Below, piece after piece: positions 15,488 to 45,344 of a stretch of DNA of 46,906 nt. The notes beneath the pieces were generated by a model that had not been told where the DNA came from, ran no database searches, and saw nothing but the letters and a program-made list of their open reading frames with translations. The translations under genes and the position numbers were made by a program. Source of the DNA: a virus. The stretch is from the UHGV virus genome UHGV-1362522. The stretch is one strand, 5' to 3'. Each line of letters begins with the position of its first letter. Position 1 is the first letter of the stretch.

Positions 15488-15564
15488 TGGTTACCGCGAC
15501 AGGATTCGAACCTGTAATCATCCGATTATGAGTCGGGTGCTTTAACCAGTTAAGCTAAACGGGA
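15488..15564 (-). tRNA. tRNA with anticodon CAT (Met or Ile2-lysidine type); acceptor stem has two mismatches, possibly degenerate
   Basis: Clean D arm (GCTT/AAGC), anticodon loop CTCATAA, T arm ACAGG-TTCGAAT-CCTGT and 3' ACCA. Pairs 2-71 and 7-66 are mismatched. Confidence 0.4.
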
Positions 15565-15567
15565 GTT

Positions 15568-15645
15568 TGGTGCACCATACTGGATTCGAACCAGTGACCT
15601 ACGGATTAGAAGTCCGTTGCTACTATCCTGCTGAGCTAATGGTGC
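15568..15645 (-). tRNA. tRNA-Arg (anticodon TCT)
   Basis: Acceptor GCACCAT/ATGGTGC, anticodon arm ACGGA-CTTCTAA-TCCGT, T arm ACTGG-TTCGAAT-CCAGT, 3' ACCA. 3-nt spacer to the neighbouring tRNA. Confidence 0.7.
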
Positions 15646-41148: not shown

Positions 41149-41565
41149 ATGGCTAAAAAACTATTCAGTAGCGAAAATCAACCACCAAATAAGCGCGGAA
41201 AAGACAAACGAAAGCTGCTTATTGAGGCGCTGGAGCGAAAAGGGTTTACCGAGGAGACGCTTTACGACACTATCGTTGATATGGCTATTAATCAACGCGA
41301 CACTGCAATGATGAAAGAGCTTATCGTGCGATTTAGCCCCCTACCCAAGCCCGTAGCCCCTGTGTTTGAGGTCGACTTCCCTGATGATGGCACGCCGGTA
41401 GAGAAGATTGATGCAGTCATTCGCGGCATTGCATCCGGCATCATCCCAGCCGACATTGGCAAGATGTTTGCCGAAGTTATTAAGACCGGCCTTGACGTCG
41501 CGGAAGTAACAGAGCTTGCGGCGCGCCTTGAGAGGCTTGAGAAGCTACTGGAGCAGCAACAGTAA
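41149..41565 (+). CDS. terminase small subunit
   Basis: 138 aa. Basic N-terminus (KRGKDKRK), helical. Immediately upstream of terL. Extended -10 TGATACAAT upstream. Confidence 0.55.
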   Translation: MAKKLFSSENQPPNKRGKDKRKLLIEALERKGFTEETLYDTIVDMAINQRDTAMMKELIVRFSPLPKPVAPVFEVDFPDDGTPVEKIDAVIRGIASGIIPADIGKMFAEVIKTGLDVAEVTELAARLERLEKLLEQQQ

Positions 41566-41629
41566 CTGATTTATAATAATCAGTGCGGCTAGGGGGCACC
41601 CGAAAAGCGACTCATCACCGCCTGCCGCA
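41566..41629 (+). promoter_or_regulatory. TATAAT -10 plus conserved structured leader, copy B (paralog of 406..466)
   Basis: TTATAATAATCAGTGCGGCTAGGGGGCACCCGAAAAG. Stem UGCGGC 41584-41589 / GCCGCA 41624-41629 covaries with copy A (A-U to G-C). Confidence 0.45.
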
Positions 41630-41664
41630 TTCACTTCAATGATGCCCTGATGAGGAATCTATAT

Positions 41665-44184
41665 ATGGCACGCAAAAAACTCTCAGCACCAGCAATTGAA
41701 AAACTCGAAGAGATTATTGGCGATGGCGTGATTGATGCGCCTGAATCTGCGGTGTTCGGTGTTGTTAATACAGATAAGCAGATTGTTCGCAAACTAAAAA
41801 TGACGCAAAGCGGAGTTGATGACGTTAGCGACTCTGATATTGGCGTTGATCACCTGATGCCAGAAAAGCTGGAAAAGCTACTTTACCCCAAGCGTAATAA
41901 GATTGTGTTTGGCGGGCGCGGATGCTTAGCCATCGGCACGATGGTGAGGATGTTTGATGGTAGCCTAAAACGCGTAGAGGATATCGTTGTTGGCGATAAG
42001 GTTATGGGTCCAGACAGTAAACCACGAAATGTTTTAAACATCTGTCGGGGGTTTGATGACATGTATACGGTTCATCAAAAATATGCTGATGACTACACTG
42101 TCAACTCAAGTCACATACTGTCATTACGAAAGATTCCATCTGCTATCAGTGACGAGACAAAAACACCGGATGGTAAAAGAATTTATCGTTATTACCCGAA
42201 TGAACCTGAAATACTGAATATTGGTGTTTCAGAATATTTGTCGCGCGCAACTTCCAAAAAGTTCCGCCATGTCTTTAAAGGGTGGCGAACAGGATGGGAT
42301 TTTAATGACCAAAGCGTCCCAGTTGACCCGTACTTTCTTGGTTTATGGTTAGGTGATGGTTCATCTCGTGGTGTTGAAGTGTGCACGCCTGATCCAGAGA
42401 TAGTTGACTACATTCACAACGTGGCAAGCCAATACGGGATGCAGGTAAAGGTTCGCGACGATGATAGATGCCCTGTCTATGCGATAACTAATGGTCGAGC
42501 TGCTGGCATGGGAAAGAACACCAACCCGTTACTAACTAAAATGCAGCAGCTTGGGGTGATTAATAATAAACACATACCTGACTGCTATATCAAAAACAGC
42601 AGAGAGGTAAGACTTCAGATTCTGGCTGGGCTATTGGATACTGATTCGCATTATGACCAGAAAAAGAAAAGCTATTCTTTCACATCAATAAATAAAGAAA
42701 TGGCCTTCTCTTTGATGGATGTGGCAAGATCGCTTGGCTTCAAGTCAAGCATAATCAAAAAGACTGATGTCACCTTTGAATATAAAGGTGAGAAAAGAAT
42801 ATACGAAAAGGACGTATGGGAGGTGTTCGTTAGTGGTGACCTTCATACAATCCCATGCCGAGTAAAAAGGAAGATAGCAGAGAAAACCAAGTCAACCCGT
42901 GGAAAGATGACTGAGGTGTCATTGTCTTATGTCGGGCATGGTGAATACGCTGGGTTCACTATTGATGGCGATCATCTTTTCCTGCTTGCTGATGGCACGG
43001 TTACACACAACAGCGGAAAAACAAGGACAGTAACAACAATACTTACGGAGCGTGCACGCTTTAAGCCTGACAGGATAGCTTGTTTTCGTGAGATTCAGCA
43101 GTCTATTGAGGATAGTTCATATCAGGAGCTGAAAGACGAGATTGACAGGAAGGGCGAGACAAAAGAGTTTCGCGTCATCAACAACGAAATAACACACAAG
43201 GTAACGAAAGCAAAGTTCCGCTTTAAAGGCCTGTATCGCAACCAGACGACCGTAAAAGGCTTCGCTGGCATTACAGTAGCTTGGGTCGAGGAGGCGGAAA
43301 ACGTCAGCCAGACAAGCTGGGAAATCCTCACCCCAACAGTCCGCGCTGAAGGGTCAGAGATATGGGTGACTTTCAACCCAAATAAAGAGCATGACCCGAC
43401 GTGGAAAATATGGGTTGAGCCTTTTTATAATAAATTGCGCGAAAATGGCGGCATCTATGAGGATGATGAAAACCTGATTATCGAGTGTAATTACTCAGAC
43501 AATCCGTGGTTCTGGGATACTCCGCTCCCAAGCCAAATGCGGCGCATGAAAGAAACCGACTTCGACCGCTATCAATGGGTGTGGGGCGGTCGCTTTAACA
43601 AGCGTAATGATGAGCAGGTATTTGGCGGTAAGTGGCGCGTTGCTGATTTCGAGGTTAAGCCGGAATGGCATGGGCCTTACTTTGGCATCGACTTTGGATT
43701 CTCGCAGGACGCAACGGCGATGGTTGAGGTTTACATTGAGAAACTTCCTGATGACCGCCGCAACCTTTACGTCGCGCGCGAATACGGCCGTGTAGGCCTT
43801 GAGATTACCGACACACCTACAGCGATGGAGCAATCATTCCCACTCTCCAGGAAGGCAAGATGGTATGGGGACTGCTCTCGGCCAGAAACAATCAGTCACA
43901 TCAAACGCGCAGGATTTGATATCCATCCATGCAATAAGTGGCCCGGGAGCGTGGAGGAGGGTGTAACCTGGCTCAGGGGTTGCGACAGCATCATCATTCA
44001 TGACCGCTGCACACAGACTCAGGAAGAGTTCACTATGTACAGTTACAAGGTGGACAAGCTGACGGGTAACGTGCTCACAAATATTGTGGATGCGTGGAAC
44101 CACTTCATTGACGCAATCAGATATGCATGCAACGATCACATCGTACAGCGTGGCTCTGGATGGATTAGAAGGAGCAGGAGATAA
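41665..44184 (+). CDS. terL: terminase large subunit interrupted by an in-frame intein
   Basis: Exteins join to VFGGRG|SGKTRTV, a canonical Walker A. ATPase and RNaseH-like nuclease regions follow. SD AGGAA 8 nt upstream of ATG 41665. Confidence 0.85.
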   Translation: MARKKLSAPAIEKLEEIIGDGVIDAPESAVFGVVNTDKQIVRKLKMTQSGVDDVSDSDIGVDHLMPEKLEKLLYPKRNKIVFGGRGCLAIGTMVRMFDGSLKRVEDIVVGDKVMGPDSKPRNVLNICRGFDDMYTVHQKYADDYTVNSSHILSLRKIPSAISDETKTPDGKRIYRYYPNEPEILNIGVSEYLSRATSKKFRHVFKGWRTGWDFNDQSVPVDPYFLGLWLGDGSSRGVEVCTPDPEIVDYIHNVASQYGMQVKVRDDDRCPVYAITNGRAAGMGKNTNPLLTKMQQLGVINNKHIPDCYIKNSREVRLQILAGLLDTDSHYDQKKKSYSFTSINKEMAFSLMDVARSLGFKSSIIKKTDVTFEYKGEKRIYEKDVWEVFVSGDLHTIPCRVKRKIAEKTKSTRGKMTEVSLSYVGHGEYAGFTIDGDHLFLLADGTVTHNSGKTRTVTTILTERARFKPDRIACFREIQQSIEDSSYQELKDEIDRKGETKEFRVINNEITHKVTKAKFRFKGLYRNQTTVKGFAGITVAWVEEAENVSQTSWEILTPTVRAEGSEIWVTFNPNKEHDPTWKIWVEPFYNKLRENGGIYEDDENLIIECNYSDNPWFWDTPLPSQMRRMKETDFDRYQWVWGGRFNKRNDEQVFGGKWRVADFEVKPEWHGPYFGIDFGFSQDATAMVEVYIEKLPDDRRNLYVAREYGRVGLEITDTPTAMEQSFPLSRKARWYGDCSRPETISHIKRAGFDIHPCNKWPGSVEEGVTWLRGCDSIIIHDRCTQTQEEFTMYSYKVDKLTGNVLTNIVDAWNHFIDAIRYACNDHIVQRGSGWIRRSRR
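41923..43011 (+). mobile_element. intein (363 aa) with double-LAGLIDADG homing endonuclease, inserted in the TerL P-loop
   Basis: N-terminal CLAIGTMV (Hint block A, Cys1). LGLWLGDGSS and ILAGLLDTDSH are LAGLIDADG motifs. C-terminal TVTHN followed by Ser+1. Confidence 0.8.
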
Positions 44185-44204: not shown

Positions 44205-44495
44205 CTATTTATAAAGCCAGCAATGAATCCCCGCGTTGCGCATGGCGGCATAAATCACGTCATCAGACACGACCGCCATTGCCACTCTGTCTGCATCAAT
44301 CTGCTGATGCGAAGCCATGATGTCATCATAGAAAACATCGTTAGCATGCAGCCACTCATACGCATGCTTTGCCCTCATGATAAGCACATCATGCCCGGCA
44401 GAGTAGAGCGACTTAGCCAGCGCAACGTTGCCAGAAATAGCATTTCCTTCCGCATCACGCAGCACGCCATCAAGCTCGAAAATGACACATTTCAT
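44205..44495 (-). CDS. HAD-like small hydrolase (nucleotidase-like), possibly degenerate
   Basis: MKCVIFELDGVL resembles HAD motif I with Glu in place of the first Asp. VVSDDV is motif IV-like. SD GGAGAAA. Confidence 0.35.
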   Translation of the reverse strand: MKCVIFELDGVLRDAEGNAISGNVALAKSLYSAGHDVLIMRAKHAYEWLHANDVFYDDIMASHQQIDADRVAMAVVSDDVIYAAMRNAGIHCWLYK

Positions 44496-44855: not shown

Positions 44856-45344
44856 ATGACAACAATTGCATGGGATGGGGTTACGATTGCGCACGATAGT
44901 CAGTCCACTGCCGGAAGCCTGATTATGGCTAACCAGCAGAAGTCTTTTGTACTTGATGAAAATGATAAGTTTTTTATTTGCGGTGAGCTGGCTGTATTGA
45001 TTGTTGGTAGTGGTGCTGCTGGCGATGAACGATATGCGAAGCAGTTCATGCGTCGGGCCGTTGATGACATTATGGAGATGCCAGAAGAGCTGGACTTTAC
45101 TCAGTGGGTATTCACAGATAAAGGGAACTGTTTTGCCATCCAGAAGATTCCTGGAAATAAATATCCAGCGGTTTACGCAGTCACTCCCCCGCTTGCTGCT
45201 GGTTGTGGGCGAGACTTTGCTATGACCGCAATGTACTTGGGGCAGACTGCTGAACAGGCGGTAATTACTGCGTCAGTTCTGGATGCTTTCACTGACTCAA
45301 ATGTTAAAACATATAAATTTAAACACGGCGAGGGGGTGAAATGA
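44856..45344 (+). CDS. HslV / proteasome beta-subunit-like Ntn hydrolase (162 aa)
   Basis: MTTIAW with Thr2 as the putative nucleophile. GVTIAHDSQSTAG, GSGAAGD and PLAAGCG parallel the HslV TTIV..IAGDGQAT..GGTADA..AIGSGG blocks. Confidence 0.55.
   Translation: MTTIAWDGVTIAHDSQSTAGSLIMANQQKSFVLDENDKFFICGELAVLIVGSGAAGDERYAKQFMRRAVDDIMEMPEELDFTQWVFTDKGNCFAIQKIPGNKYPAVYAVTPPLAAGCGRDFAMTAMYLGQTAEQAVITASVLDAFTDSNVKTYKFKHGEGVK

What the first reader, a model, noticed from the sequence alone, without database searches (positions are those of the whole stretch)
41923..43011. Intein with double-LAGLIDADG endonuclease inserted precisely in the TerL Walker A motif
Removing residues 92-454 of the terL ORF joins ..IVFGGRG to SGKTRTV.., recreating a canonical P-loop GGRGSGKT. 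The insert starts CLAIGTMV (Hint block A with Cys1) and ends ..TVTHN followed by Ser(+1). It carries two LAGLIDADG motifs (LGLWLGDGSS and ILAGLLDTDSH).

TerL would be inactive without splicing, so packaging depends on intein excision.
Basis: partly seen in the sequence, partly recalled or inferred. Interest (0 to 1): 0.6.

Follow-up and report, generated by a model that had tools for sequence, protein, structure and literature searches.

The report
Mobile intein splitting phage terminase P-loop
The DNA-packaging motor gene of this Klebsiella-type phage is interrupted, in the middle of its ATP-binding loop, by a self-splicing mobile protein element (an intein with a homing endonuclease); this is a well-known kind of element, though this copy is unannotated and has clearly moved between phage genera together with its flanking gene sequence.

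Summary
Nucleotides 41923-43011 encode a 363-aa in-frame insert in terL. Removing it rejoins GGRG|SGKT, a canonical Walker A motif.

The insert is a class-1, PI-SceI-type intein:
- Cys1, a block B Asn/His, a C-terminal His-Asn and a +1 Ser are present.
- It carries a complete double-LAGLIDADG endonuclease domain with both catalytic Asp residues and the active-site Lys.
- Support comes from Pfam, an AlphaFold model (pLDDT 92) and Foldseek (PI-SceI, E 4e-29).

Close relatives such as KP591P1 have a 476-aa TerL with a gap exactly at the insert.

The intein travels as a cassette of about 1.55-1.7 kb (about 41550-43105/43225). The cassette includes the whole N-extein and 95-215 nt of the C-extein. 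It is 93-100% identical across three phage genera whose remaining terL is saturated at silent sites (dS 2.4 against 0.05-0.18). This indicates recent lateral transfer with co-conversion. The endonuclease domain is under purifying selection (dN/dS, written ω, 0.10-0.25).

Inteins in TerL P-loops are already well documented. This is a new, unannotated member in an Sf6-gp2-like (Terminase_3) TerL, at a less common register: G|SGKT, not GK|T. Splicing and cleavage were not tested. Interest is modest.

The parts
41665..44184 (+). terL precursor gene (839 aa from ATG 41665; the ORF is open from ATG 41650, giving 844 aa). It encodes N-extein, intein and C-extein.
   Evidence: ORF list. Homologue annotations start at the equivalent of 41665. 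It is the only terL in the window.
41665..41922 (+). N-extein (86 aa), ending ...NKIVFGGRG, the first half of Walker A. This 'type A' allele is found only together with the intein.
   Evidence: In the phage collection the allele occurs at 96-98% aa identity in 11 records, all of which bear the intein; the next best full-length match is 57%. Its GC3 of 0.42 matches the intein and not the 0.59-0.63 of intein-free N-exteins.
41923..43011 (+). Intein, 363 aa, class 1, PI-SceI-like (Hint splicing domain with an inserted double-LAGLIDADG homing endonuclease).
   Evidence: Coordinates are. Support: Pfam; TIGR01443 intein C-terminal region at 16.2 bits against a 15.6 cut-off; PI-SceI by sequence at E 2e-20; AF2 pLDDT 92.4; Foldseek 1lwt at E 4e-29, TM 0.76.
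41923..42297 (+). Hint N-lobe (intein residues 1-125). It contains block A (Cys1, CLAIGTMV) and block B (..YTVNSSHILSL, Asn61/His64), plus a small insert that corresponds to part of the DNA-recognition region of PI-SceI.
   Evidence: C1 and H64 are invariant and N61 is at least 90% conserved in a 39-sequence alignment.
42298..42876 (+). LAGLIDADG endonuclease domain (intein residues about 126-318). Motif 1 is at 42337-42366 (Asp145), the Lys216 codon is at 42568-42570, and motif 2 is at 42619-42651 (Asp241, followed by an unusual Ser242 where at least 90% of relatives have Gly).
   Evidence: D145, K216, D239 and D241 are invariant. K216 aligns with the KNIP Lys of PI-SceI. I-DmoI fold matches are. 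ω is 0.10-0.25.
42877..43011 (+). Hint C-lobe (residues 319-363), with block F/G: GEYAGFTIDGDHLFLLADGTVTHN.
   Evidence: G344, D357, V360, H362 and N363 are invariant. It aligns to PI-SceI ...YYGITLSDDSDHQFLLANQVVVHN.
43012..44184 (+). C-extein. It begins with Ser+1 (SGKTRTV..., the second half of Walker A), has Walker B VAWVEE at 43276-43293, and ends with the RNaseH-like nuclease domain.
   Evidence: Alignment of the spliced product to Sf6 gp2 (4idh) at E 1e-39, with GGRGSGK aligned, is.
41550..43225 (+). Laterally transferred 'intein cassette'. It comprises the 3' tip of terS, a 99-nt spacer, the whole N-extein, the intein and about 215 nt of C-extein. The core shared by all intein-bearing phages ends at about 43104; the window, Segz_1 and ST46 share an extension to about 43225.
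   Evidence: Sliding identity and informative sites are. dS by segment is.
41149..41565 (+). Upstream terS-like ORF (138 aa). It is not part of the intein. It marks the 5' mosaic joint: it is ZC2-like in this window and different in the other intein-bearing phages.
   Evidence: The function is assumed from its position; it was not tested.

Best explanation
terL is translated as an 839-aa precursor whose ATP-binding P-loop is split between Gly and Ser of GGRG|SGKT by a 363-aa class-1 intein.

Proposed mechanism, inferred from conserved residues and not assayed:
- Cys1 performs the N-S acyl shift, assisted by block B Asn61/His64.
- Ser+1 attacks the thioester.
- Asn363, assisted by His362, cyclises and releases the intein.
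- An O-N shift leaves a 476-aa Sf6-gp2-like TerL with an intact Walker A motif.

The excised intein, and possibly the precursor, is a PI-SceI-like double-LAGLIDADG endonuclease with catalytic Asp145/Asp241 and Lys216. During mixed infection it would cut an unoccupied terL P-loop site. Repair from the intein-bearing genome would then copy in the intein together with flanking extein DNA.

This history is visible in the sequence. The intein sits in a cassette of about 1.55-1.7 kb that has moved recently among Roufvirus-like Klebsiella phages and two Salmonella phage genera, with conversion tracts of different lengths.

Shown: the anatomy, the fold, the conserved catalytic residues, the intein-free orthologues, the cassette boundaries, and purifying selection. 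Inferred: splicing in vivo, current endonuclease activity, and the target site.
For: - Coordinates and restoration of GGRGSGKT.
- The Terminase_3 score rises from 109 to 125.9 bits, and the profile match extends to position 3, once the insert is removed.
- HMM hits: Hom_end_hint 7e-21, Hom_end 2e-10, LAGLIDADG_3 6e-8; intein C-terminal model above its cut-off.
- PI-SceI is the best PDB match by sequence and by fold on a pLDDT-92 model.
- C1, H64, D145, K216, D241, H362 and N363 are invariant in 39 homologues.
- Five intein-free relatives align with a clean 363-aa gap.
- About 200 records of this TerL family are contiguous across the site; 11 carry the intein.
- The window has a single terL, and the same allele occurs in seven cultured phages.
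- Cassette evidence: window against Segz_1 is 93-100% identical over about 41550-43225 but 40-70% upstream and declining to 65-80% downstream.
- dS is 0.07 (N-extein), 0.18 (intein) and 0.05 (proximal C-extein) against 2.4 in the rest of terL.
- GC3 is 0.42 in the N-extein and intein against 0.59 in the rest.
- The 3' tract ends at about 43104 in pIS4-A and KpV2811, at about 43225 in the window, and about 580-700 nt past the intein in Segz_1.
- Endonuclease-domain ω is 0.10-0.25.
- TerL P-loop inteins that splice and cleave have been demonstrated in mycobacteriophages (PMC5050341).
Against:
- No unoccupied cognate site was found anywhere. That is, no 'type A' terL allele lacking the intein exists in the phage records, IMG/VR, the JGI metagenomes or the protein collection.
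- Known intein-free alleles differ from the rejoined site at 12-16 of 36 nt, or 7-12 of the central 24. Current targets of the endonuclease are therefore unidentified.
- Ordinary phage recombination could have moved the cassette without any endonuclease.
- Ser242 replaces a Gly that is at least 90% conserved next to catalytic Asp241.
- The dN/dS estimates rest on few substitutions (19 synonymous and 12 nonsynonymous in the endonuclease domain).
Confidence: 0.9

Rival explanations
1. The intein splices, but its endonuclease no longer homes. On this view the intein is fixed in its extein lineage, and the cassette has spread among phages only by the general homologous or illegitimate recombination that makes all of these genomes mosaic.
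For: - No empty cognate site exists in any collection searched.
- Intein-free alleles are 33-44% different around the site.
- Ser242 replaces the near-invariant Gly after the second catalytic Asp.
- The neighbouring terS and downstream genes are also mosaic without any intein involved.
Against: - Purifying selection acts on the endonuclease domain (ω 0.10-0.25). All catalytic residues are retained, and the ORF is intact in the 12 full-length alleles compared.
- Three different 3' tract lengths are all anchored on the intein.
- If flanks are always co-converted, 'type A' flanks would never be seen empty. The absence of empty sites is therefore also expected under active homing.
Confidence: 0.3
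2. The intein has been co-opted as a conditional, environment-sensing splicing switch that times or gates terminase activity. Such switches are described for RadA and DnaB inteins.
For: The position in the P-loop makes TerL activity strictly dependent on splicing. P-loop retention has been argued to reflect function (PMC4760082). Conditional splicing is documented for other ATPase inteins (titles and abstracts of PMC4513877 and PMC6195587).
Against: - Nothing in the sequence points to a sensor.
- The distribution is sporadic: 11 of about 210 records of this TerL family carry the intein, and close relatives do well without it.
- The cassette's foreign base composition fits a selfish element better.
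Confidence: 0.07
3. The 363 aa form an integral, non-splicing accessory domain of TerL, or the insertion is an assembly artefact.
For: None found.
Against: - Orthologues at 91% nt identity in the C-extein lack the insert precisely.
- All splicing residues are present.
- The insert would sit inside the phosphate-binding loop.
- The same junction occurs in 11 GenBank records and 12 IMG/VR contigs.
Confidence: 0.01

Closest known systems
PI-SceI (Saccharomyces cerevisiae VMA1 intein; PDB 1vde, 1lws, 1lwt; Pfam Hom_end_hint + Hom_end)
   Same: - Bipartite architecture: a Hint splicing domain with an inserted double-LAGLIDADG endonuclease.
- Shared residues: Cys1, an Asn-x-x-His block B, ..DHxFLL...V(T/V)HN at the C terminus, LGLW(I/L)GDG and LAGL(I/L)D(S/T)D motifs, and the KxIP lysine.
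- It is the best match by sequence (E 2e-20) and by fold (E 4e-29, TM 0.76).
- Its host protein is also a P-loop ATPase.
   Different: - Only about 24% identity.
- 363 aa against 454 aa, with a much smaller DNA-recognition insert in the Hint domain.
- +1 Ser instead of Cys.
- Ser instead of Gly after the second catalytic Asp.
- The host is a phage terminase, not a V-ATPase.
Mycobacteriophage TerL P-loop inteins (TerL1-a and TerL1-b; Kelley et al. 2016, PMC5050341)
   Same: - An intein inserted in the Walker A P-loop of the large terminase ATPase domain.
- Sporadic distribution among related phages.
- A LAGLIDADG-type endonuclease.
- In that work, TerL inteins at five other insertion sites spliced (TerL1-a was not among those assayed), and two of them cleaved intein-less partner alleles.
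   Different: - Those hosts are Terminase_1 and Terminase_6 proteins of actinobacteriophages. The paper states that only those families carried inteins in that set.
- Here the host is an Sf6-gp2-like Terminase_3 TerL of an enterobacterial siphophage.
- The TerL1-a site lies between Lys and Thr (GK|T); here the site is three residues upstream (G|SGKT).
- No experimental data exist for this intein.
Metagenomic Terminase_3 inteins P0006, P0022 and P0027
   Same: They share the TerL family, the P-loop and the PI-SceI-like intein family (40-42% identity). They group with the window's intein in 74 of 100 NJ bootstraps.
   Different: They are inserted at GGRGSGK|S, three codons downstream of the window's site.
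P-loop inteins of other NTPases: DnaB-b, phage helicases (SETP3-like Jerseyvirus, Jedunavirus JD001), PhoH, thymidine kinase, ABC ATPases
   Same: They belong to the same intein family at 32-45% identity. Nearly all lie in Walker A. A minority use the same register as here (PhoH GLWG|SGKT; helicases APTG|SGKG and LPTG|SGKT; an unnamed ATPase GSSG|SGKS).
   Different: The host proteins differ, and most use the GK|[ST] register.

Membership tests
Class-1 intein (Hint splicing domain) | An in-frame insertion that is absent from orthologues, whose removal restores a conserved host motif | tested here: met
   KP591P1, VLCpiS13a, VLCpiS13c, ZC2 and MK54 TerL align with a gap exactly at the 363 aa. 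The flanks rejoin to GGRGSGKT.
Class-1 intein (Hint splicing domain) | Block A N-terminal nucleophile (Cys/Ser/Thr at position 1) | tested here: met
   Cys1 is invariant in 39 homologues.
Class-1 intein (Hint splicing domain) | Block B (T/N)xxH | tested here: met
   The sequence is N61-S-S-H64. H64 is invariant and N61 is at least 90% conserved. My recollection that PI-SceI likewise has Asn rather than Thr at this block B position is from memory and was not tested here.
Class-1 intein (Hint splicing domain) | Block G penultimate His, terminal Asn, and a +1 Cys/Ser/Thr | tested here: met
   The sequence is ...TVTH362N363|S. H362 and N363 are invariant. TIGR01443 scores 16.2 bits against a 15.6 cut-off on the full protein.
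Class-1 intein (Hint splicing domain) | Hint fold | tested here: met
   Pfam Hom_end_hint E 7e-21. The AF2 model has pLDDT 92.4. Foldseek returns PI-SceI, TliVMA, PI-PfuI and Prp8 inteins.
Class-1 intein (Hint splicing domain) | Autocatalytic protein splicing that yields ligated exteins | not testable with these tools
   This is inferred only. The window has a single terL, and cultured phages carry this allele.
Double-motif LAGLIDADG homing endonuclease (PI-SceI type) | Two LAGLIDADG helices, each ending in a catalytic acidic residue | tested here: met
   LGLWLGD145G and LAGLLDTD241S; D145 and D241 are invariant. Pfam Hom_end E 2e-10 and LAGLIDADG_3 E 6e-8.
Double-motif LAGLIDADG homing endonuclease (PI-SceI type) | LAGLIDADG endonuclease core fold (two repeats of helices and strands) | tested here: met
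   The model's secondary structure over residues 136-304 and I-DmoI and PI-SceI fold matches.
Double-motif LAGLIDADG homing endonuclease (PI-SceI type) | Site-specific cleavage of the intein-less allele | not testable with these tools
   No empty cognate site was found. The nearest intein-free alleles differ at 12-16 of 36 nt.
Double-motif LAGLIDADG homing endonuclease (PI-SceI type) | Signature of mobility: sporadic distribution, transfer incongruent with the host gene, co-converted flanks | tested here: met
   11 of about 210 family records carry the intein. Cassette dS is 0.05-0.18 against 2.4 for the rest of terL. Conversion tracts are nested. This is indirect evidence; it does not prove that the endonuclease caused the transfers.
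Terminase_3 / PBSX-family large terminase (Sf6 gp2-like) | N-terminal ATPase with Walker A and B plus a C-terminal RNaseH-like nuclease, scoring above the curated family thresholds | tested here: met
   PF04466 scores 125.9 bits on the spliced product and PF17288 scores 53.3 bits. TIGR01547 scores 128.8 bits against a 105.05 cut-off. Sf6 gp2 (4idh) matches at E 1e-39 with GGRGSGK aligned. Walker B is VAWVEE.
'Classic' P-loop intein insertion site (between the invariant Lys and Ser/Thr of GxxxxGK[ST]; e.g. TerL1-a, DnaB-b) | The intein lies between the Lys and the Ser/Thr of Walker A | tested here: not met
   Here the insertion is G|SGKT, three residues upstream. Most of the homologues whose N-terminal junction could be read use GK|[ST], and about a fifth use the G|[ST]GK-type register.
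   The nearest genomes are Roufvirus pIS4-A and unclassified Klebsiella siphophages at about 90% nt identity. No T1-group record appeared among the listed best hits. No direct comparison with T1 was made.

The most novel reading that the evidence does not exclude
The endonuclease is active and the intein is still invading. Because every invasion co-converts about 0.4 kb upstream and 0.1-0.7 kb downstream, the intein carries its own low-GC TerL N-terminal module (86 aa) into each recipient. This would explain why that N-extein allele is never seen without the intein.

On this reading the element acts both as a vehicle that swaps the 5' module of the packaging motor across phage genera and as a weapon in mixed infections, cutting the terL of intein-free competitors. 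In addition, the lineage may have shifted its insertion point by three codons within the same P-loop relative to its nearest Terminase_3 relatives.
Probability: 0.25. Interest if true: 0.55.

Novelty: new member of a known kind. Interest (0 to 1): 0.3.

Why it matters
In practical terms, terL in at least seven sequenced Klebsiella, Salmonella, Aeromonas and Vibrio phages and 12 IMG/VR contigs is annotated simply as 'terminase large subunit', at about twice the normal length. None of the five intein-bearing GenBank records I opened notes the intein. This affects TerL-based phylogenies and taxonomy of this group, because the first 86 codons and about 100-700 nt after the intein are xenologous.

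Biologically, it is a clean natural example of an intein moving between phage genera with nested co-conversion tracts, in therapeutic-candidate Klebsiella phages. It also offers a cultivable system in which intein homing and interference between co-infecting phages could be measured.

Conceptually it adds little. Inteins in terminase P-loops, and the P-loop as an intein hot spot, are established.

Tried and rejected
1. I searched for an unoccupied cognate site with degenerate junction patterns. KIVFGGRGSGKTRTVT and GGRGSGKTRTVTTI gave 0 hits in IMG/VR, and GGRGSGKTRTVTTI gave 0 hits in the JGI metagenomes. A positive control for the occupied junction gave 12 IMG/VR contigs.
2. tblastn with the N-extein alone found no intein-free record carrying it. 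A search of the large protein collection with the spliced junction found intein-free relatives at no more than 71% identity, plus a fragment that starts inside the intein.
3. I looked for a bacterial or prophage donor of the cassette. The genome-contig scan found only inteins at 32% identity.
4. There is no second intein and no second terL in the window.
5. The promoter and terminator scan at the 5' cassette joint found nothing.
6. I tested whether the intein groups with other inteins using the same G|SGK register (PhoH, helicases, the GSSG ATPase). It does not; it groups with Terminase_3 GK|S inteins. That result rests on NJ with 74% bootstrap and long branches, so it is only suggestive.
7. 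Literature searches for any mention of an intein in pIS4-A, pYD38-A, KpV2811, Segz_1 or Roufvirus found none in the held library. Subscription journals and InBase could not be checked.
8. I rejected the integral-domain, assembly-artefact, group I intron (the insert is in frame and has protein-level motifs) and free-standing endonuclease-gene readings.
Full report
**1. The observation**

The + strand ORF 41650-44184 encodes 844 aa. CLAIGTMV begins at residue 92 and TVTHN ends at residue 454. This is nt 41923-43011 (1089 nt, 363 aa), exactly the coordinates given. Removing it joins ...RNKIVFGGRG to SGKTRTVTTI..., which restores the Walker A motif GGRGSGKT. The two LAGLIDADG motifs lie at intein residues 139-148 and 233-243, nt 42337-42366 and 42619-42651.

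The only correction concerns numbering. All annotated homologues start at the Met that corresponds to nt 41665, and a GAGGA motif lies 8 nt upstream of that ATG. The precursor is therefore probably 839 aa and the intein residues 87-449. Nucleotide coordinates do not change.

**2. What it is**

Pfam hits on the insert are Hom_end_hint (E 7e-21), Hom_end (E 2e-10) and LAGLIDADG_3 (E 6e-8). These are the families built around the yeast VMA1 intein PI-SceI. The flanks are Terminase_3 and Terminase_3C.

With the insert removed, the Terminase_3 score rises from 109 to 125.9 bits and the match extends to profile position 3. NCBIfam places the host protein in the PBSX-family large terminases (128.8 bits against a 105.05 cut-off). 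It also detects the intein C-terminal splicing region just above its cut-off.

PI-SceI is the best solved-structure match by sequence (E 2e-20). The alignment covers Cys1 to residue 55, both LAGLIDADG motifs, the KxIP lysine and the C-terminal ...DHxFLLA..V.HN.

An AlphaFold2 model built on 39 homologues is confident (mean pLDDT 92.4, pTM 0.89). Foldseek returns PI-SceI first (E 4e-29, TM 0.76). Next come the TliVMA, PhoVMA and PI-PfuI inteins, the Prp8 mini-inteins for the Hint part, and I-DmoI for the endonuclease part.

In the 39-sequence alignment the invariant residues include:
- Cys1 and His64 (block B);
- Asp145 and Asp241 (the catalytic acids of the two LAGLIDADG helices);
- Lys216, aligned with the KNIP lysine of PI-SceI;
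- His362 and Asn363.

Asn61 is at least 90% conserved. One departure was seen: Ser242 stands where at least 90% of relatives have Gly, directly after Asp241. The four other intein-bearing TerL alleles aligned at the protein level also read DTDSH here.

The spliced TerL aligns to Shigella phage Sf6 gp2 (PDB 4idh) at E 1e-39, with GGRGSGK matched residue for residue. Walker B (VAWVEE) lies 89 residues into the C-extein.

**3.

The window is a Roufvirus-like Klebsiella-type siphophage. It is about 90% identical over 25 kb to vB_Kpn_ZC2, BUCT541, ZX4, pIS4-A and others. Most of those relatives have a TerL of 474-480 aa.

KP591P1 is 91% identical at the nucleotide level across the C-extein. It aligns with a gap that coincides exactly with the 363 aa. 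So do VLCpiS13a, VLCpiS13c, ZC2 and MK54.

In the phage collection about 200 records of this TerL family are contiguous across the site. Eleven records carry the intein, representing seven phages: pIS4-A, pYD38-A, KpV2811, Segz_1, ST44, ST46 and ST65. IMG/VR adds 12 contigs with the occupied junction.

The refutation criterion, that homologues carry the insert as an integral domain, is therefore not met. The distribution is sporadic, as expected for a mobile element. The five intein-bearing GenBank records I opened annotate only 'terminase large subunit', with no note on the intein. I also found no paper in the held library that mentions an intein in these phages.

**4. The surroundings: the intein sits in a transferred cassette**

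*Identity profile.* Against Segz_1 (genus Segzyvirus) and ST46 (Macdonaldcampvirus) the window is 93-100% identical from about 41550 to about 43225. That stretch is the last few bases of terS, a 99-nt spacer, the whole N-extein, the intein and about 215 nt of the C-extein. Upstream, identity is only 40-70%. Downstream it falls to 65-80% within the same gene.

*Silent-site divergence, window against Segz_1.* dS is 0.07 in the N-extein, 0.18 in the intein, 0.05 in the first 71 C-extein codons, and 2.4 (saturated) in the remaining 319 codons.

*Comparison with an intein-free relative.* Against KP591P1 the pattern is the reverse. The C-extein is 90-97% identical, but the N-extein is only about 50% identical at the nucleotide level.

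*Association with the N-extein allele.* Full-length matches to the 'type A' N-extein (96-98% aa identity) occur in the phage collection only in the 11 intein-bearing records. The next best full-length match is 57%. Two further records in the 90-95% identity band cover less than 80% of the query and were not examined.

*Base composition.* N-extein GC3 (0.42) matches the intein (0.42). It does not match the rest of terL (0.59) or intein-free N-exteins (0.59-0.63).

*3' ends of the tract.* These differ between phages:
- about 43104 in pIS4-A and KpV2811, which then revert to KP591P1-like sequence;
- about 43225 in the window;
- about 580-700 nt past the intein in Segz_1 and ST46, whose C-extein stays Roufvirus-like that far before becoming Skatevirus/Deseoctovirus-like.

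The Segz_1/ST46 pattern implies transfer from a Roufvirus-like donor into the Salmonella phages.

*5' joint.* The joint at about 41545-41557 is sharp. It abuts a terS that is itself mosaic: ZC2-like in the window and different in the other intein-bearing phages.

Nested conversion tracts anchored on the intein are what endonuclease-initiated double-strand-break repair predicts. They do not by themselves exclude ordinary recombination.

**5. Is the endonuclease alive?**

Evidence for activity:
- All catalytic residues are retained.
- The ORF is intact in all 12 full-length alleles compared.
- The endonuclease domain has ω of 0.10-0.25 in the comparisons with enough substitutions, for example 19 synonymous against 12 nonsynonymous changes between the window and Segz_1.

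Evidence against, or unknown:
- I found no empty cognate site in the phage records, IMG/VR, the JGI metagenomes or the 5.8-billion-protein collection.
- The intein-free alleles of relatives read GGRG|SSKT, GGRA|STKT, GGRG|SAKT or GGRG|SGKT. They differ from the rejoined site at 12-16 of 36 nt, or 7-12 of the central 24.

Two readings fit these facts. In the first, the intein is fixed in its extein lineage and the cassette now moves by general recombination. In the second, the enzyme tolerates degenerate sites, and co-conversion always replaces the recipient's flanks, so 'type A' flanks are never seen empty. I favour an active or recently active enzyme, at roughly 60:30. Only a cleavage assay or a phage cross can decide.

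**6. How it most likely works**

The precursor cannot bind ATP, because the phosphate-binding loop is interrupted by a folded 363-aa protein. This is an inference, made in the same way for mycobacteriophage TerL in PMC5050341.

Canonical class-1 splicing would produce the 476-aa TerL and release the intein. The steps are the Cys1 N-S shift, attack by Ser+1, Asn363 cyclisation and an O-N shift.

The window has a single terL, and seven cultured phages carry this allele. Splicing in vivo is therefore strongly implied, but it has not been shown.

**7. Comparison with what is known**

Terminases are a recognised common target of inteins in phages, and the P-loop is a recognised intein hot spot in ATPases (PMC4760082). 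In mycobacteriophages, TerL inteins at seven sites have been described, including two in the P-loop. Splicing was demonstrated for five representative inteins and endonuclease activity for two (PMC5050341).

The present element differs in three respects:
- Host family: Terminase_3 (Sf6-gp2-like) rather than Terminase_1 or Terminase_6.
- Host range: phages of Enterobacteriaceae.
- Register: G|SGKT rather than GK|[ST].

Among 120 homologues of the intein (32-45% identity), nearly all sit in Walker A motifs of very different NTPases. These include DnaB, thymidine kinase, PhoH, ResIII helicases, ABC ATPases, RecA, dTMP kinase, AAA+ proteins and Terminase_3. Most use the GK|[ST] register. About a fifth of those whose N-terminal junction could be read use the G|[ST]GK-type register seen here. 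Phage helicase inteins of Jedunavirus, Jerseyvirus and a Vibrio phage (38-39% identity) use GGGK|T.

In an NJ tree the window's intein groups with three metagenomic Terminase_3 inteins inserted three codons downstream, with 74% bootstrap support. It does not group with the inteins that share its register. This hints at a shift of insertion point within one host family. The support is weak and the branches are long.

**8. Verdict**

It is a new, unannotated member of a well-known kind of element. Its value lies in annotation, in caution for TerL-based taxonomy of this phage group, and in a tidy natural record of intein-linked gene conversion across three genera. I score interest at 0.3.

Noticed in passing
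window 41149-41565 (+): The terS-like ORF upstream of terL is itself a mosaic module. It is 0.90-0.98 nt identical to Klebsiella phage ZC2 but only 0.4-0.7 identical to the terS of the other intein-bearing phages, even though their terL is 97-98% identical. The joint at about 41545-41557 coincides with the 5' end of the intein cassette. The same TerL N-terminal module is therefore paired with several different small-terminase types.
   Followed up: partly
window 41566-41664; compare L001 2092-2247, L006 2583-2738, L026 465-611, L028 465-611, L029 453-611: Intein-free relatives annotate a small 147-159-nt CDS that overlaps the end of terS and the start of terL. Intein-bearing phages instead have a 99-nt non-coding spacer containing a perfect hairpin, CTGATT-TATAAT-AATCAG, at 41567-41584. 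No promoter-like or terminator-like consensus was found there.
   Followed up: partly
L003 (Segz_1) and L005 (ST46), terL C-extein: In the two Salmonella phages the C-extein stays Roufvirus-like (0.78-0.93 identical to KP591P1) for about 580-700 nt past the intein. It then switches to Skatevirus/Deseoctovirus-like sequence (0.82-0.95). This indicates the direction of transfer (Klebsiella-type phage to Salmonella phages) and a much longer conversion tract than in the window.
   Followed up: yes
window 43105-43224: This 120-nt patch directly downstream of the core cassette is 99% identical to Segz_1 and ST46. It is only 82% identical to pIS4-A and KpV2811, which are otherwise the closest GenBank terL relatives (dS 0.5-1.1 against 0.04-0.09 around it). 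It looks like a second, independent conversion event.
   Followed up: yes
window 44856-45344 (+): A 162-aa ORF corresponds in position to a gene annotated 'peptidase HslV family protein' in VLCpiS13a. It is present in only some relatives. A minus-strand 96-aa ORF at 44205-44495 corresponds to a gene annotated 'polynucleotide kinase' in ZC2.
   Followed up: no
window 15488-15645 (-): Adjacent tRNA-Met (CAT) and tRNA-Arg (TCT) genes, as also annotated in pIS4-A.
   Followed up: no
L009 1460-1975 (MK54); H140 (VLCpiS13e): Intein-free relatives carry free-standing homing endonuclease genes next to the terminase genes. MK54 has a 'homing endonuclease' just upstream of terS, and VLCpiS13e has an HNH endonuclease under the terL match. 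The terS-terL region therefore appears to be a general hot spot for mobile nucleases in this phage group.
   Followed up: no
P0001-P0120: A single PI-SceI-like intein family (32-45% identity) occupies Walker A loops of at least a dozen unrelated NTPase families in metagenomes. It uses two discrete registers: GK|[ST], and G|[ST]GK three residues upstream.
   Followed up: partly
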